Source: a virus (Duplodnaviria; Heunggongvirae; Uroviricota; Caudoviricetes). Taken from it: a DNA stretch of 11,067 bases. The position numbers and the translations under genes were made by a program. The stretch is taken from IMG/VR virus record IMGVR_UViG_2690316002_000013, one strand, 5' to 3'. This document shows positions 1-10,662 of the stretch, piece by piece (position 1 is the stretch's first letter; every line of letters starts with the position of its first letter). The notes under the pieces were generated by a model. That model had not been told where the DNA came from. It did no database searches and saw only the letters and a program-made list of their open reading frames with translations.

Positions 1-1461
1 ATGAAAAAATTACTGCATCTTTTTTTCCCGCTCTCGCTGCGGGTACGTTTTCTGTTAGCAACGGCAGCAGTAGTATTGGTGCTTTCGCTTGCCTACGGAA
101 TGGTTGCGCTGATCGGTTATAGCGTCAGTTTCGATAAAACCACGTTTCGGCTGTTACGTGGCGAGAGCAATCTGTTCTATACCCTTGCGAAGTGGGAAAA
201 CAATAAGTTGCATGTCGAGTTACCCGAAAATATCGACAAGCAAAGCCCCACCATGACGCTAATTTATGATGAGAACGGGCAGCTTTTATGGGCGCAACGT
301 GACGTGCCCTGGCTGATGAAGATGATCCAGCCTGACTGGCTGAAATCGAATGGTTTTCATGAAATTGAAGCGGATGTTAACGATACCAGCCTCTTGCTGA
401 GTGGAGATCATTCTATACAGCAACAGTTGCAGGAAGTGCGGGAAGATGATGACGACGCGGAGATGACCCACTCGGTGGCGGTAAACGTCTACCCGGCAAC
501 ATCGCGGATGCCAAAGTTAACCATTGTGGTGGTGGATACCATTCCGGTGGAGCTAAAAAGTTCCTATATGGTCTGGAGCTGGTTTATCTATGTGCTCTCA
601 GCCAATCTGCTGTTAGTGATCCCGCTGCTGTGGGTCGCCGCCTGGTGGAGTTTACGCCCCATCGAAGCCCTGGCAAAAGAAGTCCGCGAACTGGAAGAAC
701 ATAACCGCGAATTGCTCAATCCAGCCACAACGCGAGAACTGACCAGTCTGGTACGAAACCTGAACCGACTGTTAAAAAGTGAACGCGAACGTTACGACAA
801 ATATCGTACGACGCTCACCGACCTGACCCATAGTCTGAAAACGCCACTGGCGGTGCTGCAAAGTACGCTGCGTTCTCTGCGTAGTGAGAAGATGAGCGTC
901 AGTGATGCTGAGCCGGTAATGCTGGAGCAAATCAGCCGCATTTCACAGCAAATTGGCTACTACCTGCATCGTGCCAGTATGCGCGGCGGGACATTGCTTA
1001 GCCGCGAGCTGCATCCGGTCGCCCCACTGCTGGACAATCTCACCTCGGCGCTGAACAAAGTGTATCAACGCAAAGGGGTCAATATCTCTCTCGATATTTC
1101 GCCAGAGATCAGCTTTGTCGGTGAGCAGAACGATTTTGTCGAGGTGATGGGCAACGTGCTGGATAATGCCTGTAAATATTGCCTCGAGTTTGTCGAAATA
1201 TCTGCAAGGCAAACAGACGAGCATCTCTATATTGTGGTCGAGGATGATGGCCCCGGTATTCCCTTAAGCAAGCGAGAGGTCATTTTCGACCGTGGTCAAC
1301 GGGTTGATACTTTACGCCCTGGGCAAGGTGTAGGGCTGGCGGTAGCCCGCGAAATCACCGAGCAGTATGAGGGTAAAATCGTCGCCGGAGAGAGCATGCT
1401 GGGCGGTGCGCGGATGGAGGTGATTTTTGGTCGCCAGCATTCTGCGCCGAAAGATGAATAA
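1..1461 (+). CDS. phoQ: Sensor histidine kinase PhoQ (PhoP/PhoQ two-component system), complete 486 aa
   Basis: Full-length ORF starting at window position 1. Translation shows N-terminal TM helix, periplasmic acidic patch ([11 protein letters not shown]), H-box ([12 protein letters not shown]) and HATPase motifs ([15 protein letters not shown]). Matches my recollection of E. coli PhoQ almost residue for residue. Confidence 0.97.
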
Positions 1462-2096: not shown

Positions 2097-2237
2097 GTTT
2101 CCGAAAATATCAGCGGGTTAGCGATTAAGCTGACGAGTAATTAAACTGCGAAAATTTCGTAGTTTGTGACTATCTGAAAGATAGTCGGTTGTTCCGGCCT
2201 CAGCCGTTGGCTGTTTCCGAAAATATCAGTAGGTTAG
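2097..2237. repeat. 26-bp direct repeat pair GTTTCCGAAAATATCAG-YR-GGTTAG (2097-2122 and 2212-2237, 24/26 identical) flanking the palindrome GACTATC-tgaaa-GATAGTC (2168-2186)
   Basis: Seen in sequence, in the non-coding stretch between phoQ and the first element gene. Confidence 0.6.
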
Positions 2238-2277: not shown

Positions 2278-2559
2278 TTACCGCCGTAACCGCTCCGGCT
2301 TCTTCCAGTGGTACGTAATTTTCTCCGTTTCCCGATACAGTGCCACGCGGCGATTGTAGGCCAGCATTTCAAGAACGCGGATCCGTATGTTGCGCATATC
2401 CACATCATTAAGCTGGATACCATCACGGCGCATCACCTCAGCAACAACACGCGCATAATTTTCGGCTGTCACGCTGTCCGGCTGCGTGGCCTGTTCGTCA
2501 GTCTGCTGGCTGATTCCACCAGCACGGCGGATTAATCCCAGTATTTCGGCTTCTGTCAT
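2278..2559 (-). CDS. Hypothetical small phage-type protein (93 aa), function unknown
   Basis: Intact ORF co-directional with the other element genes; its start lies about 34 bp from the cos-1 inverted-repeat arm. No family recognised by eye. Confidence 0.5.
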   Translation of the reverse strand: MTEAEILGLIRRAGGISQQTDEQATQPDSVTAENYARVVAEVMRRDGIQLNDVDMRNIRIRVLEMLAYNRRVALYRETEKITYHWKKPERLRR

Positions 2560-2592
2560 TGTGCACCCATCGTTCTGATTGTCTGGTGTCGT

Positions 2593-2795
2593 CGGGTCCT
2601 TCCTGGAATTATGGACCCGTTACGGGGCGGCGACCTCGCGGTTTTTATCTGTTTATGAAAATTTTCCGGCAAAAGTCAGATCCGTTCTTCTTCTCTGTAA
2701 CAGACTGTTTAACAATGAAAATATTAAAAAAAGAAAGGATCTGACACGAGGCATTTTAGCCAGAAAATGCCATTATCAGATCCTTTCTCATTTTT
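2593..2795 (+). other. Lambda-type cohesive-end site cos-1: cosQ-like arm, cosN (GGGCGGCGACCT, 2625-2636) and cosB with R3/R2/R1-like repeats (GATCCGTTCTTC 2679-2690; GAAAGGATCTGA 2733-2744; AGATCCTTTCTC 2778-2789)
   Basis: 2619-2700 closely follows the phage lambda left end as I recall it (GGGCGGCGACCTCGCGGGTTTTCGCTATTTATGAAAATTTTCCGG...CCGTTCTTCTTC). Orientation is cosN then cosB toward higher coordinates. Confidence 0.8.
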
Positions 2796-2815
2796 GTTCA
2801 ATAATTGCGCGTCTG

Positions 2816-3358
2816 TTACTCGCCTTTCTTCTGTAGCAACTTTTCCGGTACGTTTCCGGTTGTTTCTTTCAAGTAATCAGTCAGTATCTGTGGGAGGTTG
2901 TCGGCAACTCTGGCACTGGCATTACAGGCTTTAACCACTTCCCTTTTAAGCCTATCCAGCATGGCGGGGGTAATCTGTGGGAAGCTCCTTTGCATAGTAA
3001 GCGGGAGGCTGTCCATGATTGATGAAATCTGACTCGCCAGCTTTGAAAGCGCGTACAGGCAAAACTCAGTATCAATCACGTCACCGCGATCGCGCTCGTT
3101 TTTAAGTTCCTGCGCCTCCGCCTGTGCTGTCAGTAATCTGATCCTGACTCGTAAGAGTTCATCATCATCAATATCGCCTTTGTCGTTTGTAAGCTGGCTA
3201 ATTGCATTGTTAACCCTATTGTCTATCACGCTGGCAACATCATAAAACGCCTCACGGCCTTTACGTTCAACGGGAGTCACTCCCCACTTGTCGAACGCTG
3301 TCGCACTTACACGGCAGCTTTTCGCCATGTTTTTTTTGTTCATCAGGTGCGATTTCAT
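2816..3358 (-). CDS. Terminase small subunit, lambda Nu1 family (180 aa ORF; true start may be the internal Met at 3341-3343)
   Basis: Translation aligns by eye with lambda gpNu1: LLTAQAEAQELKNERD vs LTRAQADAQELKNARD, and TEFCLYALSKLASQISSIMDSLPLTMQRSFP vs TAFCTFVLSRIAGEIASILDGLPLSVQRRFP. Sits directly downstream of cos-2, the canonical cos-then-Nu1 arrangement. No strong Shine-Dalgarno at either candidate ATG. Confidence 0.9.
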   Translation of the reverse strand: MKSHLMNKKNMAKSCRVSATAFDKWGVTPVERKGREAFYDVASVIDNRVNNAISQLTNDKGDIDDDELLRVRIRLLTAQAEAQELKNERDRGDVIDTEFCLYALSKLASQISSIMDSLPLTMQRSFPQITPAMLDRLKREVVKACNASARVADNLPQILTDYLKETTGNVPEKLLQKKGE

Positions 3359-3534
3359 TAATACACCAACTTAATTACTGCTTCAGGTTGGTGTATTGTT
3401 TGCATCTTTCCCTTTTTATTCATAAAGATAGATCAAACAACGAAACCACCACCACCCCCCTGAAAAGGCTCATAAATAGCGAAAAACCGCTAGGTCGCCG
3501 CCCCGTAACGGGCCATAATTCCAGGAAGGACCCG
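3359..3534 (-). other. Second lambda-type cos (cos-2), inverted: cosN complement AGGTCGCCGCCC at 3492-3503, cosQ-like arm to 3534, degenerate cosB and a 9-bp-stem hairpin (3364-3397) just upstream of terS
   Basis: Reverse complement of 3485-3534 matches 2593-2641 with only two differences (one 1-bp indel, one mismatch). Similarity to cos-1 and to lambda fades inside cosB. Confidence 0.75.
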
Positions 3535-3535
3535 T

Positions 3536-3557
3536 AAAAAAGCCGGATTTCTCCGGC
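3536..3557 (-). terminator. Intrinsic terminator closing the head operon (minus strand: GCCGGA-gaaa-TCCGGC then TTTTTT)
   Basis: GC-rich 6-bp stem, 4-nt loop, U6 tract, 7 bp after the stop of the 137-aa gene. First of three near-identical copies. Confidence 0.6.
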
Positions 3558-3563
3558 CTTGTC

Positions 3564-3977
3564 TCAGATGGTTTTCAGTATGCGATCGATGTCGCCGTCA
3601 TCGCCCTGGTTTCTGCCATCGTATGCCATGCCAGCTGATACGGCTTGCGGGCTGTGCATGTCCATAAAGTTTTCAAAGGCTGCGGTAAGTTCCGGCGCAA
3701 CCTTCGGACGTTCCTGCTCTATGGTCATGCTAAGGATGCTTTTAGCCGTACCAACATCGATACAAGGCACGTTTGCCATTGCACGCAACAGCGGCTGATA
3801 GTCTTTATGCTCATGAAGCGCCATAATCGCATCAGCGCGCGGCTTGTCCTGCTCTTCCAGTTTGTTTAGTTGATATACGGCCTCATAGGTTGATAAACCT
3901 CTGTCAGCCATTGCCCGCGCTTCGACTTTAAATTTACTCGCCAGCGGTAGCGTCATGATGCTTTCATTCGTTGCCAT
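3564..3977 (-). CDS. Hypothetical protein (137 aa) between the decoration gene and cos; possible packaging or head-completion factor
   Basis: Intact ORF with strong SD (AGGGGGAA) 12 bp after the decoration gene stop. No similarity recognised to lambda FI, FII, W or Nu3 by eye. Confidence 0.65.
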   Translation of the reverse strand: MATNESIMTLPLASKFKVEARAMADRGLSTYEAVYQLNKLEEQDKPRADAIMALHEHKDYQPLLRAMANVPCIDVGTAKSILSMTIEQERPKVAPELTAAFENFMDMHSPQAVSAGMAYDGRNQGDDGDIDRILKTI

Positions 3978-3989
3978 CGTTCCCCCTGC

Positions 3990-4325
3990 TTATCGGGCCA
4001 GCGGCTGAACGGATACGCCGGAACCCGCAAAGGCGGCGCATTTTTTCGCATCGGTGTCGACGCTCTCAGGCCAGTTAACGGCGGCAATATTGAATATCCC
4101 CGTCTTGTAACACTGTGCTGATTTCTGCTTTGACGTGCCCACAGGGTACGAGGTCAGATAAACAGCCTTGCCAGATTCCTGACCATCCCACGGCTTAAAC
4201 TCGCCATTGTCTGCCAGCATCAGCGGGGTAAATTCCTGAATAACGCCAGCATCAGCGGCAAAATGTACCAACGTCGTGGATACCTGCTGACTGCCTGCAA
4301 ATAACTCAATGTATGGAGTGTCCAT
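3990..4325 (-). CDS. Head decoration protein, lambda gpD family (111 aa)
   Basis: Aligns with lambda gpD: TPLMLADNGEFKPWDG vs TPLMLDTSSRKLVAWDG, CYKTGIF vs FYKSGTF, KKCAAFAGSGVSV vs KKRTAFAGTAISIV. SD GGGGGGA upstream, 12 bp after the capsid gene stop. Confidence 0.9.
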   Translation of the reverse strand: MDTPYIELFAGSQQVSTTLVHFAADAGVIQEFTPLMLADNGEFKPWDGQESGKAVYLTSYPVGTSKQKSAQCYKTGIFNIAAVNWPESVDTDAKKCAAFAGSGVSVQPLAR

Positions 4326-4337
4326 AGAATCCCCCCG

Positions 4338-5393
4338 TTAACCAATTTTGACGGTAACAAATTTGCGAATATCTGCCGGTACCGGCTGCGGTGCACTGTG
4401 TGTCTGCACGTACTCAATCGCCGGATCGCCGTCCTCAATCCAGTTTTTCGGGTAAAACATGTTTTGTGTTGCGCCCGTTCTTACCGCTTCCTGATCCATT
4501 ATCGCACCATAGGCCACCAGCCCTTTATTGTTGGTGTTACCCAGGACCAGCAAATCAGGCTCAAGGAAATATTTTTCGGTACCATCGCTGTCAGTGTATT
4601 TGCCGGAATAGACGATAAGGGCCAGATCACCAAGATAGCCTTTAAAGCTCACCACTTCGCCCAGGTTTTTACAGGCCAGTTCGGCGGCGGATTCTGAACC
4701 ACGGGAAAGATCGTACAGCTCACGGAATTTTTTAAAGCTGCCTAATGTGCGCCATACCTCAGCGCCCATAATCATGACGTTTGCGGGGCAACCAGCCTGA
4801 TCAGCATAAAGCTCGATGTCATAGATTGGGTCGTGCATGTCTTTATCCTGCTCGGACCATTTTTTACCCTTGGCCTGCTCTATGATGCAGTTTTCCGGTA
4901 TTTTCCAGTCGATTTCATAGCGTTCTATGCCTTCGCCCTCAATGATGTTTTTTCCGGTCGTTACCGCATTCACCGCCAGCCATTCCACGCGTGCCTTAAT
5001 GGCGTTTATCTGGCGGCGCATGTTGCCAGTAATCAGGCGCATACGGCGATAGGTAGGGTCGTTAAGCTGTGCCGGATCTTCTCCAGCCATGCGCATGATG
5101 GTTTTCGTTGGATCGATTTCGTGCTTTGGCTTCATGTAGCCAGGTTTGATTGTGCTGGTTTCGTACCCTTTATCGCGCTGAACCTGGCTACCCACCATAG
5201 GCGAACAAAACGCCGACATGGTGACTTCTTCAATGTCCAGGGTATCCAGCATGATGTTTTGCGTGCTGAATGTCGCCACGTTCGGGAAAAACAGCGTGGT
5301 AAACAGAGGGCTGAATTTAAAATCCGCAATATCCCCGCGATTCAGGTACATGAAAAGCTGGTTAGTGTTAAGTGCCGTTGCTTTGCCTGCCAT
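4338..5393 (-). CDS. Major capsid protein, lambda gpE family (351 aa)
   Basis: Extensive by-eye alignment with lambda gpE (FKFSPLFTTLFF vs FKFDPLFLRLFF; PGYMKPKHE vs PGYVKPKHE; DPTYRRMRLI vs DPAYRRRRII; VSFKGYLGDLALIVYSGKY vs VSYKGMYGDVAIVVYSGQY; LVLGNTNNKGLVAYG vs MVLGNTQARGLRTYG; YPKNWIEDGDPA vs YPKNWVTTGDPA). Confidence 0.95.
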   Translation of the reverse strand: MAGKATALNTNQLFMYLNRGDIADFKFSPLFTTLFFPNVATFSTQNIMLDTLDIEEVTMSAFCSPMVGSQVQRDKGYETSTIKPGYMKPKHEIDPTKTIMRMAGEDPAQLNDPTYRRMRLITGNMRRQINAIKARVEWLAVNAVTTGKNIIEGEGIERYEIDWKIPENCIIEQAKGKKWSEQDKDMHDPIYDIELYADQAGCPANVMIMGAEVWRTLGSFKKFRELYDLSRGSESAAELACKNLGEVVSFKGYLGDLALIVYSGKYTDSDGTEKYFLEPDLLVLGNTNNKGLVAYGAIMDQEAVRTGATQNMFYPKNWIEDGDPAIEYVQTHSAPQPVPADIRKFVTVKIG

Positions 5394-5599
5394 TATTCAC
5401 CCCCATAATTTTTATGCATCCCAAGCGCCGCAAGTAAATAAGAGCGTACAAGTGAACCTATCGACGGCTCCGGCGTCATCAGCGGATCCAGTCCAGCCGC
5501 AACGCCAGCTTCATAGTTTTTTTTGTGGCGCTGCTTGAGCACCTCCACGATTTCGGGGCTTATGTACACCGAAACACCGCCTTTTTTCTCTTCAGCCAT
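5393..5599 (-). CDS. Small ribbon-helix-helix-like protein (about 68 aa from Met at 5597-5599), translationally coupled to the capsid gene
   Basis: SD AGAGGA precedes the ATG at 5597-5599. Its stop overlaps the capsid start (TAATG). The segment KGGVSVYISPEIVEVLKQ looks like an RHH beta-strand plus helix; this is an inference from the pattern, not a search. Confidence 0.55.
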   Translation of the reverse strand: MAEEKKGGVSVYISPEIVEVLKQRHKKNYEAGVAAGLDPLMTPEPSIGSLVRSYLLAALGMHKNYGGE

Positions 5600-5631
5600 A
5601 GTAAGAAATTCCTCTTCGACTAAAAAAATCA

Positions 5632-5690
5632 TAACTGGATGTTTATCCAGTCCTGATTATAATCAGAATTGCATTTTATGCAATGATATT
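5632..5690 (-). promoter_or_regulatory. Candidate promoter/operator region of the RHH-capsid operon with three palindromes: CTGGAT-gttt-ATCCAG (5635-5650), TGATTATAATCA (5654-5665), TTGCAT-ttt-ATGCAA (5669-5683)
   Basis: Seen in sequence. TATAAT lies inside the central palindrome on both strands, and TTGCAT/ATTGCA sits 15-16 bp away as a possible -35. Confidence 0.45.
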
Positions 5691-5764
5691 GAGTTATGTT
5701 GCAAATTATGAAATGATTATCCCGATCACGAACGCCAGTGCATCCAAAAACCTCATATGCAAAA

Positions 5765-5802
5765 GCCCGATAAGAACCCTCTGACCTTATCGGGCTTTTT
5801 TT
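5765..5802 (+). terminator. Plus-strand intrinsic terminator (GCCCGATAAG ... CTTATCGGGC then T6)
   Basis: 10-bp GC-rich stem followed by TTTTTT on the plus strand only, although every annotated gene nearby is on the minus strand. Confidence 0.55.
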
Positions 5803-5808
5803 GGGCGC

Positions 5809-5830
5809 AAAAAAGCCGGATTGCTCCGGC
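5809..5830 (-). terminator. Intrinsic terminator after the 74-aa gene (GCCGGA-gcaa-TCCGGC then T6 on minus strand)
   Basis: Second copy of the AAAAAAGCCGGATTKCTCCGGC module. Confidence 0.6.
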
Positions 5831-5850
5831 TATGTGTGCTGTGTGCTGGC

Positions 5851-6075
5851 TCAGTCTCTGATCTCTTTCAGAAATTCTATCAATGCATCTATCTGTTCAG
5901 GATTTACCGCCAGCATTTCACCGGATAGAGCACATCTCACAAAACCATGCTGATCCTTTTCAATCAGTGCGCCCGTCTCCAGGAATGCGCGGTAATCATT
6001 GATGCTCATCGTCTCCATGTTGTCAGCATGGTATTTATCACGCTGTTTTAATATCTCATCAAATTTCATCGGCAT
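5851..6075 (-). CDS. Hypothetical protein (74 aa), stand-alone unit bounded by terminators
   Basis: Intact ORF with SD AGAGGA 9 nt before the ATG. No family recognised. Confidence 0.55.
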   Translation of the reverse strand: MPMKFDEILKQRDKYHADNMETMSINDYRAFLETGALIEKDQHGFVRCALSGEMLAVNPEQIDALIEFLKEIRD

Positions 6076-6171
6076 TGTTTTTTTCCTCTGTTGTGTCTGT
6101 TTGTTTCAGATAGTAACTATGCCTGACCGTGACGAAAACCCGGTAATGCGCCATACCGTTTCAACTGGTGC

Positions 6172-6194
6172 AAAAAAAGCCGGATTTCTCCGGC
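6172..6194 (-). terminator. Intrinsic terminator after the PerC-like gene (third copy of the GCCGGA-tttc-TCCGGC module with A/T tract)
   Basis: Hairpin 6179-6194 preceded on the plus strand by A7 (U-tract on the minus strand), 8 bp after the stop. Confidence 0.6.
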
Positions 6195-6201
6195 TGTTTG
6201 A

Positions 6202-6474
6202 TTAGCTGTCCTGGTAATTGCGCCATATTTCATCACCAGCACCATCTATACCCATTTCGGCATAAGTGCGATCGACTGCCTTTTTCAGGTCTCCGAAATT
6301 ATCCGGCGGCTCCGGTGCCCTCTGTGCCTTCCTTGAACATTCCAGCCGTCGCATCGTGATGTGATGCCGTTCCTTGTCTGTCTCCACCAGCTGCATGACT
6401 TCACCCCATCGCGCCGCCGCCCTCCGGTAAAAGCCTTTCGCCTCCAGTTCCTCCGCTATGCGGTCATGTACCAT
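6202..6474 (-). CDS. PerC-family transcriptional regulator homologue (about 90 aa from Met at 6472-6474)
   Basis: N-terminal MVHDRIAEELEAKGFYRRAAARWGEVM fits the conserved PerC/Pch signature as I recall it. Strong SD GGGGGTGA upstream. The longer 130-aa ORF in the track would overlap the SSB gene. Confidence 0.75.
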   Translation of the reverse strand: MVHDRIAEELEAKGFYRRAAARWGEVMQLVETDKERHHITMRRLECSRKAQRAPEPPDNFGDLKKAVDRTYAEMGIDGAGDEIWRNYQDS

Positions 6475-6484
6475 CGTCACCCCC

Positions 6485-6895
6485 TCAGAACGAAATATCA
6501 TCACCGTAAGAGTCATCGCCTCCCGCTGGTGGCTGATTACCCTGTGTGCCTGTGGTTTTGCGTCTGTTCCCGCCTGGACGTGCCGCGCGGGCACTGATTA
6601 CGCTGTCTGCGATAACCTGCCAGCCCTGCCGCGTTTCTCCGTTCTGTCCGGTCCACTGGCTTACCTGCATCGTGCCGGATACGCTGGCAACATCGCCTTT
6701 TTGATGTTTAGCCAGGAAGTCGGCCTGTTTGCCAAATGCGATGACCGATAACCATAACGTCGCCTGTCCGTCCTGTGCCTGGCTGCATGGCAAAGATACC
6801 GCCATACGCGCCAGCGTCATCGGTGTGCCCTTGCTGGTCTGTTTTACCTGCGGGTCGTCCACCAGCCGCCCGTAAGCGGCTATCTGTGCCGTCAT
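6485..6895 (-). CDS. Single-stranded DNA-binding protein (SSB family, 136 aa)
   Basis: OB-fold-like core (LWLSVIAFGKQADFLAKHQKGDVASVSGTMQVSQWTGQNGETRQGWQVIADSV), Gly/Pro/Gln-rich linker and acidic tail ...GDDSYGDDISF resembling the canonical SSB DDDIPF tip. SD GGAGAGG upstream. Confidence 0.8.
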   Translation of the reverse strand: MTAQIAAYGRLVDDPQVKQTSKGTPMTLARMAVSLPCSQAQDGQATLWLSVIAFGKQADFLAKHQKGDVASVSGTMQVSQWTGQNGETRQGWQVIADSVISARAARPGGNRRKTTGTQGNQPPAGGDDSYGDDISF

Positions 6896-7143
6896 AATTC
6901 CACCTCTCCGGTTTTAACGTTGATGGTTGTTACCTGTTCCGCTTCGGCAATCTCCCGTTCTGTCAGCGTGGCAAAGTTTGCCGCCGCCGTGGTCATGAAT
7001 GCGCTTATCAGGTCGGGATGTTCCTTCGCGTATCCTTCCCGCGTGTGGCGGTCTATCGTTCTGATTGCCACCTTTAAGGTGTGCTCAGTCATGTCTAACG
7101 CTTTATATTTTGGCTCTGTTCTGTCTCTGCGTTTTTGGGTCAT
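6892..7143 (-). CDS. Hypothetical small protein (about 83 aa from ATG at 7141-7143), translationally coupled to ssb
   Basis: Its stop overlaps the ssb start (ATGA). The track's longer ORF begins at a GTG. No family recognised. Confidence 0.5.
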   Translation of the reverse strand: MTQKRRDRTEPKYKALDMTEHTLKVAIRTIDRHTREGYAKEHPDLISAFMTTAAANFATLTEREIAEAEQVTTINVKTGEVEL

Positions 7144-7149
7144 TTCTCG

Positions 7150-7345
7150 CAACCTCTCACTTTTTCGCCTCACTTTTTCAAGCGTCTCACTTCGTCGCAG
7201 TTGGGATTTTCGGTTTTTCTATGTGTGTGTTTCATAAGTATTTTTTTACCCCTCACTTTTGAGGATGTATACAGGTCGAAAAGTGAGGGAGAGCGGGCTA
7301 ATTTTGGCCCTCTTTCTATCCCCCTCGCTTTTGCTCCTCACTTTT
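7150..7345. repeat. Iteron array, candidate replication origin: about 7 copies of CTCAC(T)TTT (7156, 7169, 7186, 7252, inverted at 7279-7288, variant CTCGCTTTT at 7324, 7337) plus an AT-rich stretch (7214-7248)
   Basis: Counted directly in sequence. Includes a convergent pair CCTCACTTTT / AAAAGTGAGG around GTATAC. Lies immediately 3' of the RepA-like gene; the last iteron overlaps its stop codon. Confidence 0.6.
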
Positions 7346-8385
7346 ATAGCGGCGCTACATCATCCCCATCGATACGAATAACCCCATCTTTTTCCAGCTT
7401 GTACAGCCAGCGCCGGAAGTTTTTCATTTCATACCCCAGCTTTTTCATGTCATCACGTAACAGCGGGATCGTGCACTTGTCGCCGTTCTGTGTGCGTGAA
7501 CGGATGCACCCCCATAGCGCGGTATGGTTTTCCGTCTTGTTCCCTGCCTCCTCGATGCGCTCCAGTTCAACAGGAGGGCGCGGATCATCCACCACCACCA
7601 GCGACGTGATTAATTCACCGTCAGCGTCGGTAAAAAGCTCCACCACGCGTAAGTCATATGCGGCTTCTTTGAGTTCCTCCGCGTCCTTCATTTTGGTGCA
7701 TGAGATAACCAGCGCTTCGCTTCCTGCGTCCTCCCTGCGTATCCGGTATTCAGCATCCAGCGAAGCACGAAATGCACTGGAACCGCGCGCGCCTTTCGTC
7801 TCATCCTTGCCGGAATGGTGAACCACCAGCACCGTGGCCCCTGTGCGTCGTTTCAGTTCGTCACAACCACGGATAAACGCCCCATATCACGGGAATCATT
7901 TTCATCATTCCCACCAAAGCAACGCGCCAGCGTATCCAGAATAATCATGCGTACAGGTTTACCCGTTTCCCGCTCCACCTGACGGGCAGCGATAACCATT
8001 TCATCAACATCAAGCGGGGCAGCCGGAAAGATGGGGCGGTTTACCAGATACAGATTTTTCACCTGCTCATCGTGCACAACCTCCCAGGCTTTTACACGAC
8101 GCGGAACACCTATACCGCCTTCACCAACCACATAGAGAACCGCACCATGTGCAACCCTGCGGCCTCCCCACTGGCGACCAGTGGCAACATGGCACGCCCA
8201 CGATCCGGCAAGGAATGATTTATAGGACCCGCTAGCCCCGTATATGCTGCATAGCGATACCGCCGGAATAATCCCCTTAACCACGTAATCCAGTTGCGTG
8301 TCGTATCCGGTAGATCCAACGCTCATCGGTAGCGTGGTTTTTCGCTGGTGGTTTTTTTCTTCCGCCGGCTCTTTCCCGCGCACCC
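7344..8385 (-). pseudogene. RepA-like replicative ATPase (AAA_25/RecA-fold, DnaB-like helicase family) with C-terminal winged-helix-like domain; reading frame broken by a 1-nt frameshift near 7872-7877, 5' end running into the N gap
   Basis: Walker A GASGSYKS, Walker B-like MIILDTLA and the LVVHHSGKD motif lie in two different frames (tracks 7853..8623 and 7344..7832). One extra A in the run at 7875-7877 would give a continuous ...DMGRFIRGCDELKRRTGATVLVVHH... . A possible ATG start is at 8324-8326 but has no SD. Confidence 0.6.
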
Positions 8386-8616
8386 NNNNNNNNNNNNNNN
8401 NNNNNNNNNNNNNNNNNNNNNNNNNNNNNNNNNNNNNNNNNNNNNNNNNNNNNNNNNNNNNNNNNNNNNNNNNNNNNNNNNNNNNNNNNNNNNNNNNNNN
8501 NNNNNNNNNNNNNNNNNNNNNNNNNNNNNNNNNNNNNNNNNNNNNNNNNNNNNNNNNNNNNNNNNNNNNNNNNNNNNNNNNNNNNNNNNNNNNNNNNNNN
8601 NNNNNNNNNNNNNNNN
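8386..8616. other. Assembly gap (231 N)
   Basis: Run of n characters. Truncates the RepA-like gene on one side and the pin gene on the other. Confidence 0.99.
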
Positions 8617-10401: not shown

Positions 10402-10424
10402 TTACCACATGTGTTAAATATTAT

Positions 10425-10453
10425 AACGGGCGTATAACACGCCCGTTGTTTTT
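10425..10453 (+). terminator. Intrinsic terminator after the icd 3' fragment (AACGGGCGT-ataac-ACGCCCGTT then T5)
   Basis: 9-bp GC-rich stem and U-tract 24 bp after the stop codon. Confidence 0.65.
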
Positions 10454-10662
10454 ATAAATATGTTAACCGTTATAAAATAACGTATCAAAAGTCAAGTGAA
10501 CACATTTCAAATATCAATTTGATCGTATTGGTCTGGTGATTATTTATGGGGAGCAATAAAAAGACAGTATTAATCATCCATAGGGATAGTCTCTGCACTT
10601 TTATTTCCATTATGCTAATGCCTTACTGAATTATGAAGCATTTTTTAAGCTCCCAACTTTAG

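What the first reader, a model, noticed from the sequence alone, without database searches (positions are those of the whole stretch)
7844..7890. Single-nucleotide frameshift splits the RepA-like ATPase between Walker B and the HHSGKD motif
Frame A ends ...DSRDMGRLSVVVTN* at 7853 while frame B carries FIRGCDELKRRTGATVLVVHHSGKD... from 7887 downward. One additional A in the run at 7875-7877 would restore a continuous ~325-aa protein. Either the replication gene is inactivated (a domesticated or helper-dependent element) or this is a homopolymer error in a draft assembly that already contains a gap.
Basis: seen in the sequence. Interest (0 to 1): 0.45.

Follow-up and report, generated by a model that had tools for sequence, protein, structure and literature searches.

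The report
Broken replication gene in phage satellite
A one-base deletion really does split the replication helicase gene of a phage-parasitic island next to phoQ in one E. coli lineage, so it is an ordinary recent pseudogene and not an assembly error.

Summary
The coding (-) strand reads GATATGGGGCGTTTATCC. Every orthologue with an intact gene has five G; the window has four (window 7880-7883, CCCC on the + strand). The A run at 7875-7877 is unchanged.

The intact gene encodes a 466-aa "helicase RepA family" protein (Pfam AAA_25, RSF1010-RepA-like), not about 325 aa. Its first 120 codons lie in the window's N gap. The break falls between Walker B and the HHSGK motif.

The gene is the replication module of an EcCICFT073-type phage-inducible chromosomal island (PICI) at the roxA/phoQ site, with an iteron origin just downstream.

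The four-G allele is not an error of this assembly. The same split gene (296 aa + 162 aa) occurs in nine other independent assemblies, all 0-2 SNPs from the window wherever they cover the 6.9-kb arm. It is absent from all 435 complete E. coli genomes that match the site, and from 44 of 45 matching metagenome and viral contigs.

All other island genes in the window are intact.

Best reading: one recent loss-of-function deletion inherited within one lineage. It should abolish autonomous island replication and cut transfer about 100-fold, as reported for EcCICFT073 delta-pri-rep. Low interest.

The parts
7880..7883 (-). Frameshift site. The coding strand has a run of four G where all intact orthologues have five (a one-base deletion in codons Gly286/Ala287).
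   Evidence: Alignment with O157 TR01. All 435 complete E. coli genomes that match carry the extra base. Regex count over all loci: 10 with 4 G, 45 with 5 G.
7853..8385 (-). 5' fragment of repA as visible in the window: residues 121-286 of the 466-aa protein, then a 9-codon out-of-frame tail (RLSVVVTN) and a premature TGA at 7855-7853. Codons 1-120 are lost in the N gap. In sister assemblies this fragment is a 296-aa ORF.
   Evidence: Pfam AAA_25 E=1.9e-31. 296-aa ORF in L002-L004.
8216..8239 (-). Walker A-type P-loop, GASGSYKS.
   Evidence: Read from the sequence. Aligns with the GGAGKS P-loop of RSF1010 RepA 1G8Y.
7934..7948 (-). Walker B, MIILD (followed by TLAR).
   Evidence: Read from the sequence. 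Aligns with LMVLDTLRR of RSF1010 RepA.
7344..7886 (-). 3' part of repA in the -1 frame (residues 287-466, stop at 7346-7344). It carries the HHSGK motif and the C-terminal region, which has no Pfam match.
   Evidence: phrog_2850 positions 284-465.
7803..7820 (-). HHSGKD motif (helicase motif H3 equivalent), now out of frame with the P-loop.
   Evidence: Aligns with FLHHASK of RSF1010 RepA.
7830..7832 (-). GTG, the first possible restart codon of the 162-aa downstream ORF. An AGGGG lies 5 nt upstream (7842-7838) and the premature stop is 20 nt upstream. Expression is not shown.
   Evidence: Gene callers annotate this 162-aa ORF in NCBI records.
7155..7345 (-). Putative island replication origin. 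Five direct copies and one inverted copy of the iteron AAAAGTGAGG (some with mismatches) lie in two sets, flanking an A+T-rich stretch at about 7205-7249, immediately 3' of repA.
   Evidence: The layout matches the description of E. coli PICI origins in PMC6092414 (Fig. 2 legend).
8386..8616 (.). Run of 231 N (scaffold gap). It hides the first 358 nt of repA. It also hides whatever joins the island to the e14 pin gene.
   Evidence: The same interval is 1391 nt in L050 and 570 nt in L002, each with a single N at the join.
2278..7143 (-). The rest of the island's right arm, all intact. It holds an 83-aa ORF (6895-7143), SSB (6485-6895), PerC-family regulator (6205-6474), small ORFs, a lambda gpE-like major capsid protein (4338-5393) and a gpD-like decoration protein (3990-4325). 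It also holds a 137-aa scaffold-like protein (3564-3977), a Nu1-like small terminase/Rpp-like protein (2816-3358) flanked by two inverted cosN copies (3492-3503 and 2625-2636), and a 93-aa ORF (2278-2559).
   Evidence: Full-length gap-free tblastn matches to the O157 island proteins. Pfam labels. PHROGs. cosN 12-mers.
1..1461 (+). phoQ, the chromosomal flank on the island's right side.

Best explanation
The feature is a genuine, heritable one-base deletion (G5 to G4) in the replication gene of an EcCICFT073-type phage-inducible chromosomal island inserted between roxA and phoQ. The gene normally makes a 466-aa RepA-type helicase/initiator with three parts: an N-terminal region, a RecA-like AAA_25 core and a C-terminal region. 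This protein is expected to load at the iteron origin immediately downstream and replicate the excised island once a helper phage switches the island on. The deletion ends translation after residue 286 plus 9 wrong residues. The product therefore keeps the P-loop and Walker B but loses the HHSGK motif, everything downstream in the ATPase core, and the whole C-terminal region. Inferred consequences: the island can still be excised and packaged, because int, alpA, cos sites and morphogenesis genes are intact. It can no longer amplify itself, so its transfer should fall by about two orders of magnitude unless a co-resident island supplies the same RepA in trans. The mutation arose once, recently, and is inherited within one E. 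coli lineage. Shown: the deletion, its position, its recurrence in independent assemblies, and the integrity of the neighbouring genes. Inferred: loss of helicase function, the effect on replication and transfer, and single origin.
For: The deletion is located by alignment. The 5-G allele is present in all 435 matching complete E. coli genomes, in 10/10 metagenome contigs and in 34/35 IMG/VR contigs. The 4-G allele was verified base by base in L002/L016 (GCA_001283345.2), L003 (ENA metagenome ERZ28571872), L004 (GCA_000704845.1, E. coli 3-073-06_S1_C1) and L005 (GCA_000447105.2, E. coli C93-11 per PMC3897749). It was also verified in four Logan assemblies of separate SRA runs (L008-L011) and in L050 (an IMG isolate genome). 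The two ORFs are also deposited under four further ENA-derived protein accessions. All full-length 4-G loci differ from the window by 0-2 SNPs and no indels over 6885 nt. The nearest 5-G locus (L065) differs only by the indel over 1463 nt. That pattern fits one recent origin and a low indel error rate in these assemblies. Family: Pfam AAA_25 E=2.4e-43. The protein aligns with RSF1010 RepA 1G8Y across P-loop, Walker B and HHxxK, with the break between the last two. The helicase parts of phage primase-helicases also match. Context: same site and gene order as EcCICFT073, with an iteron origin 3' of the gene. PMC6092414 Table 1 reports EcCICFT073 transfer falling from about 8e3 to about 50 on deleting pri-rep, and pri-dependent replication after AlpA expression. 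All other right-arm genes are intact. In L003, int and alpA are intact too.
Against: No reads were available, so the base call in this particular isolate rests on agreement with sister assemblies. Several of those may share an assembly pipeline (L002, L050 and the four ENA-annotated genomes). Loss of function is inferred from motif positions and was not tested. EcCICFT073 carries a different (primase-type) replication protein, so the 100-fold figure is an extrapolation. A restart at GTG 7832 could yield the C-terminal fragment, and split RecA-like folds occasionally reassemble. Whether the host genome holds a second island with an intact copy is unknown. Up to three copies per genome occur elsewhere.
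Confidence: 0.85

Rival explanations
1. The missing G is a homopolymer sequencing or consensus error of a low-quality gapped draft, and the gene is intact in the real genome.
For: The site is a homopolymer and the window carries a 231-N gap 500 nt away. Complete genomes all show five G.
Against: The same allele is present in nine other assemblies from different projects and assemblers, including a metagenome and four Logan assemblies of separate runs. It is strictly linked to one island haplotype. The window has no indel difference from these assemblies over about 9.5 kb. A four- versus five-base run is short for a systematic error.
Confidence: 0.03
2. The mutation is real but adaptive rather than neutral decay. 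Losing RepA locks a useful island (PerC-family regulator, phage-interference genes) in the chromosome, and avoids the cost of runaway island replication.
For: PMC6092414 reports that uncontrolled EcCICFT073 replication harms growth and viability, and that many E. coli PICIs carry activators of the LEE island. One host, C93-11, appears in a list of E. coli genomes used in a study of LEE regulation. All other island genes remain intact. The same frameshifted arm is found with two different left arms (L003 and L004).
Against: The allele is rare: 0 of 435 complete genomes and 1 of 45 other contigs. The 4-G copies are nearly identical, so there has been too little time to see selection. Nothing distinguishes it from a neutral recent pseudogene.
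Confidence: 0.08
3. The split gene is still functional. Either ribosomes or RNA polymerase slip to restore the frame, or the 296-aa and 162-aa pieces work together, or the C-terminal piece works alone as an origin-binding regulator.
For: The downstream frame is -1 relative to the upstream one. A GTG with an AGGGG 5 nt upstream lies 20 nt after the premature stop. Gene callers predict the 162-aa ORF.
Against: The 31-nt overlap of the two frames (7856-7886) holds no X XXY YYZ slippery heptamer in phase. Its longest runs are 4 G and 3 T, far below known transcriptional slippage sites (read). The break cuts through the RecA-like core between Walker B and the H3 motif. 5-G is the only state in hundreds of relatives, so there is no sign of a conserved recoding site.
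Confidence: 0.04

Closest known systems
EcCICFT073, the prototype Gram-negative phage-inducible chromosomal island of E. coli CFT073 (Fillol-Salom et al. 2018, PMC6092414; 2019, PMC6739421)
   Same: Same insertion site between roxA and phoQ. Same one-directional gene order: int, alpA-type HTH, Icd-like, small ORFs, DUF4222, replication gene, origin, SSB, PerC, gpE-like capsid, gpD-like decoration, 137-aa protein, packaging-redirection gene flanked by two inverted cosN copies, 93-aa ORF.
   Different: The replication protein is a 466-aa RepA-type helicase instead of CFT073's 584-aa primase-family Pri-Rep. The packaging gene is a 180-aa Nu1-like protein instead of the 144-aa CFT073 protein. In the window's lineage the replication gene is frameshifted.
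Intact allele of the same gene, WP_000833628.1 'helicase RepA family protein', in E. coli O157:H7, O55:H7, O111, O145 and others
   Same: 100% amino-acid identity over residues 121-286 and 287-466, and identical DNA apart from the one G over 1042 nt.
   Different: Five G and one 466-aa ORF. The exact protein is seen on at least 1000 contigs, against 6 for the 162-aa fragment.
RepA hexameric helicase of plasmid RSF1010 (PDB 1G8Y, 1NLF, 1OLO)
   Same: Same RecA-like core with P-loop, Walker B (DTL) and HHxxK motif in the same order. Same Pfam family, AAA_25.
   Different: The sequence relation is only weak (E=0.0055). The island protein has an extra N-terminal region of about 145 aa and a C-terminal region of about 145 aa that RSF1010 RepA lacks. 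It sits next to its own iteron origin and probably also acts as initiator (inferred).
SaPI Pri/Rep replication module with downstream iteron origin (staphylococcal pathogenicity islands)
   Same: A replication initiator-helicase gene followed directly by an origin made of two iteron sets around an A+T-rich stretch. PMC6092414 states that Gram-negative PICI origins share this organisation.
   Different: No detectable sequence relation was tested here. The host and helper phages are different.

Membership tests
RepA-like (AAA_25) RecA-fold replicative helicases | Match to Pfam AAA_25 above the gathering score | tested here: met
   Intact orthologue 148.5 bits against a cut-off of 27, residues 148-315. 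The window's 5' fragment scores 109.7 bits but covers only profile positions 19-169 of 195.
RepA-like (AAA_25) RecA-fold replicative helicases | P-loop, Walker B and H3 (HHxxK) motifs in one polypeptide | tested here: not met
   All three motifs are present in the DNA and align with RSF1010 RepA. In the window, HHSGK (7803-7820) is in a different frame from the P-loop and Walker B, beyond a premature stop. The gene is therefore a pseudogene of this family.
RepA-like (AAA_25) RecA-fold replicative helicases | Hexamer formation with ATP-dependent DNA unwinding | not testable with these tools
   Needs biochemistry.
Gram-negative PICI, EcCICFT073 type | Integrase at the left end and a dedicated chromosomal site (roxA/phoQ intergenic region) | tested here: met
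   Met in sister loci with the same right arm: L003 (roxA, 409-aa int) and L001 and CFT073. In the window itself only the phoQ side is visible, because the left arm lies beyond the N gap.
Gram-negative PICI, EcCICFT073 type | alpA-type activator gene | tested here: met
   The 62-aa HTH protein is 100% identical to the O157 copy in L003. It is not visible in the window.
Gram-negative PICI, EcCICFT073 type | Replication gene followed by an origin with two iteron sets around an A+T-rich stretch | tested here: met
   Iterons AAAAGTGAGG at 7155-7345 flank an A+T-rich stretch at about 7205-7249. Origin function was not tested.
Gram-negative PICI, EcCICFT073 type | All genes transcribed in one direction, size about 10-15 kb, no tail or lysis genes, and cos sites with phage-like cosN | tested here: met
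   All island ORFs are on the - strand. The island is about 11 kb in L001. Two exact lambda cosN 12-mers are present, with 0 expected by chance.
Gram-negative PICI, EcCICFT073 type | Induction by a helper phage and packaging into phage particles | not testable with these tools
   Needs experiments. Shown only for EcCICFT073 in PMC6092414 and PMC6739421.
Programmed -1 ribosomal frameshift site | In-phase X XXY YYZ slippery heptamer within the overlap of the two frames | tested here: not met
   The overlap at 7856-7886 reads AUG GGG CGU UUA UCC GUG GUU GUG ACG AAC. No heptamer of that form is in phase (read).

The most novel reading that the evidence does not exclude
The frameshifted allele is kept because it is useful. 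The 162-aa C-terminal piece would be re-initiated at GTG 7832 and carry the presumed origin-recognition region. It would bind the island origin, or that of incoming related islands, as a replication inhibitor or immunity factor. Loss of the helicase would meanwhile fix a PerC-carrying island in an attaching-and-effacing E. coli lineage.
Probability: 0.04. Interest if true: 0.4.

Novelty: new member of a known kind. Interest (0 to 1): 0.1.

Why it matters
It matters little beyond annotation. It shows that a split 'AAA domain protein' plus 'hypothetical protein' pair in several E. coli records is one frameshifted PICI replication gene. It also shows the allele is real and lineage-specific, so it could serve as a clonal marker. 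It offers a natural replication-null variant of an EcCICFT073-type island, with everything else intact, for anyone studying how much island replication contributes to transfer. Finally, it is a reminder that a gap nearby does not make a homopolymer indel an error.

Tried and rejected

(2) L006 and L007 carry the 162-aa ORF only because their contigs start about 40 nt upstream of it. They do not cover the frameshift site and were not counted.

(3) Pin-mediated recombination was considered as the cause of the island/e14 junction. It was rejected because in L002 the whole 26-bp crossover site next to pin is retained and the break lies outside it, not at its central dinucleotide. In L050 the e14 side ends 822 nt further in.

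(4) Sequence searches of the PDB with the C-terminal 147 aa and with the Nu1-like protein gave no significant match. The idea that the C-terminal region is a winged-helix origin-binding domain therefore stays an untested inference.

(5) NCBIfam gave only sub-threshold RadA matches.

(6) A literature search for SpLE2 of O157 Sakai was not followed up. Any equivalence of that element with this island rests on my memory only.

(7) Structure prediction and the large protein-database searches were not run, because the answer did not depend on them.

Full report
**The observation**

On the - strand, one reading frame runs from the N gap (8385) through a P-loop (GASGSYKS, 8239-8216) and a Walker B box (MIILD, 7948-7934). 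It ends ...DSRDMGRLSVVVTN-TGA at 7855-7853. The -1 frame opens at 7886 and reads YGAFIRGCDELKRRTGATVLVVHHSGKD... to a stop at 7346-7344.

Alignment with the orthologue in E. coli O157:H7 TR01 shows one difference in 161 aligned bases. The orthologue has GATATGGGGGCGTTT and the window has GATATGGGGCGTTT. The lost base is a G of a five-G run (window 7880-7883, C on the + strand). It is not an A of the run at 7875-7877.

The intact product reads DSRDMGAFIRGCDELK and is 466 aa long (WP_000833628.1, 'helicase RepA family protein'). The true first 120 codons lie in the 231-N run at 8386-8616.

**What the gene is**

The intact protein matches Pfam AAA_25 over residues 148-315 (E=2.4e-43). It aligns, weakly but across all motifs, with the hexameric helicase RepA of plasmid RSF1010 (PDB 1G8Y). 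P-loop, Walker B (LDTLAR against LDTLRR) and VVHHSGK against FLHHASK appear in the same order. PHROGs links the same core to the helicase halves of phage primase-helicases.

The deletion falls after residue 286, between Walker B and the HHSGK motif. The 296-aa product therefore lacks part of the ATPase core and the whole C-terminal region of about 145 aa. That C-terminal region has no Pfam, NCBIfam or PDB sequence match.

**What the element is**

In O157 the gene lies in an island of about 11 kb between roxA and phoQ. Its genes, in order, are:
- integrase, an AlpA-type HTH protein, an Icd-like protein, small ORFs and DUF4222;
- RepA, an 83-aa ORF, SSB and a PerC-family regulator;
- a lambda gpE-like capsid protein, a gpD-like decoration protein and a 137-aa protein resembling the scaffold end of head proteases;
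- a Nu1-like small terminase and a 93-aa ORF.

E. coli CFT073 has an element with the same order at the same site. This is EcCICFT073, the prototype Gram-negative phage-inducible chromosomal island (PMC6092414). CFT073 carries a primase-family replication protein instead. PMC6092414 states that E. coli PICIs have four allelic Pri-Rep variants.

Directly 3' of repA, the window has copies of AAAAGTGAGG in two sets around an A+T-rich stretch (7155-7345). This is the origin layout described for these islands. Two exact lambda cosN 12-mers in inverted orientation flank the Nu1-like gene, as in CFT073. These are the known cos1 and cos2 (PMC6739421).

**Real mutation or assembly error**

Among complete E. 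coli genomes, 435 match a 61-nt probe across the site. None matches at 99% or more, and 431 match at 95-99% (98.4%, the value for a single gap, in the rows listed), so none carries four G. All 10 metagenome contigs and 34 of 35 IMG/VR contigs with the flanking sequence also have five G.

An exact look-up of the 162-aa downstream ORF nevertheless found it on 16 contigs. I checked the DNA of each locus. Four G are present in:
- GCA_001283345.2 (L002/L016);
- an ENA metagenome contig that carries the complete island from roxA to phoQ (L003);
- GCA_000704845.1, E. coli 3-073-06_S1_C1 (L004, name);
- GCA_000447105.2, E. coli C93-11 (L005, name from PMC3897749);
- four Logan assemblies of separate sequencing runs (L008-L011);
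- an IMG isolate-genome contig with the same ends as the window (L050).

Two further contigs (L006, L007) start just downstream of the site and are uninformative. The fragment proteins are also deposited under four more ENA-derived accessions.

All full-length four-G loci differ from the window by 0-2 substitutions and no indel over 6885 nt. The closest five-G locus (L065) differs only by the indel over 1463 nt. An error private to this draft is therefore very unlikely. The allele behaves as a single, recent deletion inherited in one lineage. It is rare: the intact protein is seen on at least 1000 contigs, against 6 for the 162-aa fragment.

**State of the rest of the island**

Every other gene of the right arm gives a full-length, gap-free match to its O157 counterpart. 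RepA itself has no amino-acid change in the visible 346 residues. In L003 the integrase and alpA are intact too. There is no sign of general decay.

**Likely consequence**

This part is inferred. The truncated protein cannot be an active helicase, so the island should not replicate after induction.

For EcCICFT073, deleting pri-rep lowered transfer from about 8e3 to about 50. AlpA-driven replication also required pri (PMC6092414 Table 1 and Fig. 6e). I expect a similar drop here, unless a second island supplies the same protein. Some genomes hold up to three copies of this gene.

I looked for signs of recoding. The downstream frame is -1, but the 31-nt overlap has no in-phase slippery heptamer, and its longest runs are only 4 G and 3 T. 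A GTG at 7832, with AGGGG 5 nt upstream and the premature stop 20 nt upstream, could allow re-initiation of the C-terminal piece. This is possible but unsupported.

**The gap and the neighbours**

Beyond the N run the window continues with the 3' part of pin, then mcrA, the icd remnant and ycgX, which form the right end of prophage e14. In reference genomes phoQ and e14 are about 7 kb apart (about 25 kb from the island across e14 to pin) and in the opposite relative orientation. The scaffold therefore implies an inversion.

Every assembly that shows this adjacency has an N exactly at the join. On the island side the break is always 22 nt upstream of the repA start. On the e14 side it is at the pin-proximal crossover site in L002 but 822 nt further into the invertible P segment in L050. 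Of ten contexts returned for the same McrA protein, only the one from the L002 assembly has pin next to the island. I regard the adjacency as unverified. It may be a scaffolding join through repeats or a real rearrangement, and reads are needed to decide.

**Verdict**

The feature is a true frameshift pseudogene of the replication helicase of a known type of phage satellite. It is correctly spotted, slightly mislocated, and not an assembly artefact. It is of low general interest.

Noticed in passing
window 8386-8616 and flanks; L002 5040-5090; L050 8760-9600: The scaffold joins the phoQ-proximal arm of the island to e14 pin-mcrA-icd' in an orientation that implies a chromosomal inversion of roughly 25 kb relative to reference E. 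coli. All three assemblies showing this (window, L002, L050) have N at the join. The e14-side breakpoint differs between them, while the island-side break is always 22 nt upstream of repA.
   Followed up: partly
L004 1-4360 versus L003 1-5090: The identical frameshifted right arm is attached to two different left arms. L003 has roxA, a 409-aa integrase and alpA. L004 has a 413-aa integrase only 24% identical, plus a Phage_ASH-domain protein. Their similarity changes sharply near the repA start, the same point where contigs break in L002 and L050. This suggests module exchange between islands, or two islands in one genome.
   Followed up: partly
window 2593-2669 and 3459-3534: A 77-nt inverted repeat flanks the Nu1-like gene. 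Each arm holds an exact lambda cosN 12-mer (GGGCGGCGACCT at 2625-2636 + and 3492-3503 -). The same pair exists in EcCICFT073 (L023 17559 and 18298) and corresponds to the published cos1/cos2. PMC6739421 still lists the reason for two cos sites as an open question.
   Followed up: yes
window 2816-3358 (-): In the slot where EcCICFT073 has a 144-aa ORF (presumably rppA; not checked), this island has a 180-aa Phage_Nu1 / phrog_57 small-terminase homologue. It has no significant sequence match to any PDB chain, so it appears to be a different packaging-redirection variant.
   Followed up: partly
window 3564-3977 (-): The 137-aa protein after the decoration gene matches the C-terminal (scaffold-like) end of phage head maturation proteases (phrog_53, E=6e-9). 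The island thus carries capsid, decoration and scaffold-like genes but no portal or large terminase.
   Followed up: no
window 10402-10662: Between the icd remnant and ycgX the window lacks about 860 nt, including iraM, that the best-matching complete genomes have. The match spans 3311-3318 nt in those records against 2451 nt in the query. Only a YmgL-like ORF remains in sister locus L016.
   Followed up: no
L016 14902-17350: In the sister assembly, chromosomal genes right of e14 look truncated compared with other strains: an EAL-domain protein of 285 aa against 507 aa, and an autotransporter of 175 aa against 882 aa. This hints at several pseudogenes in this lineage.
   Followed up: no
L003 4097-4562 versus L001 7651-8115: A 154-aa ORF of the O157 island corresponds to two overlapping ORFs of 79 and 77 aa in a different frame in L003. 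This is a second frame difference between island variants, and which state is ancestral is unclear.
   Followed up: no
proteins P0006 and P0015: Other E. coli records hold 327-aa versions of RepA starting at internal Met140. These are either other disruptions of the 5' part or gene calls on cut contigs.
   Followed up: no
window 2097-2121 and 2213-2237: A 25-nt direct repeat (92% identical, 116 nt apart) lies in the non-coding stretch between the island's last ORF and phoQ. It is possibly related to the attachment site.
   Followed up: no
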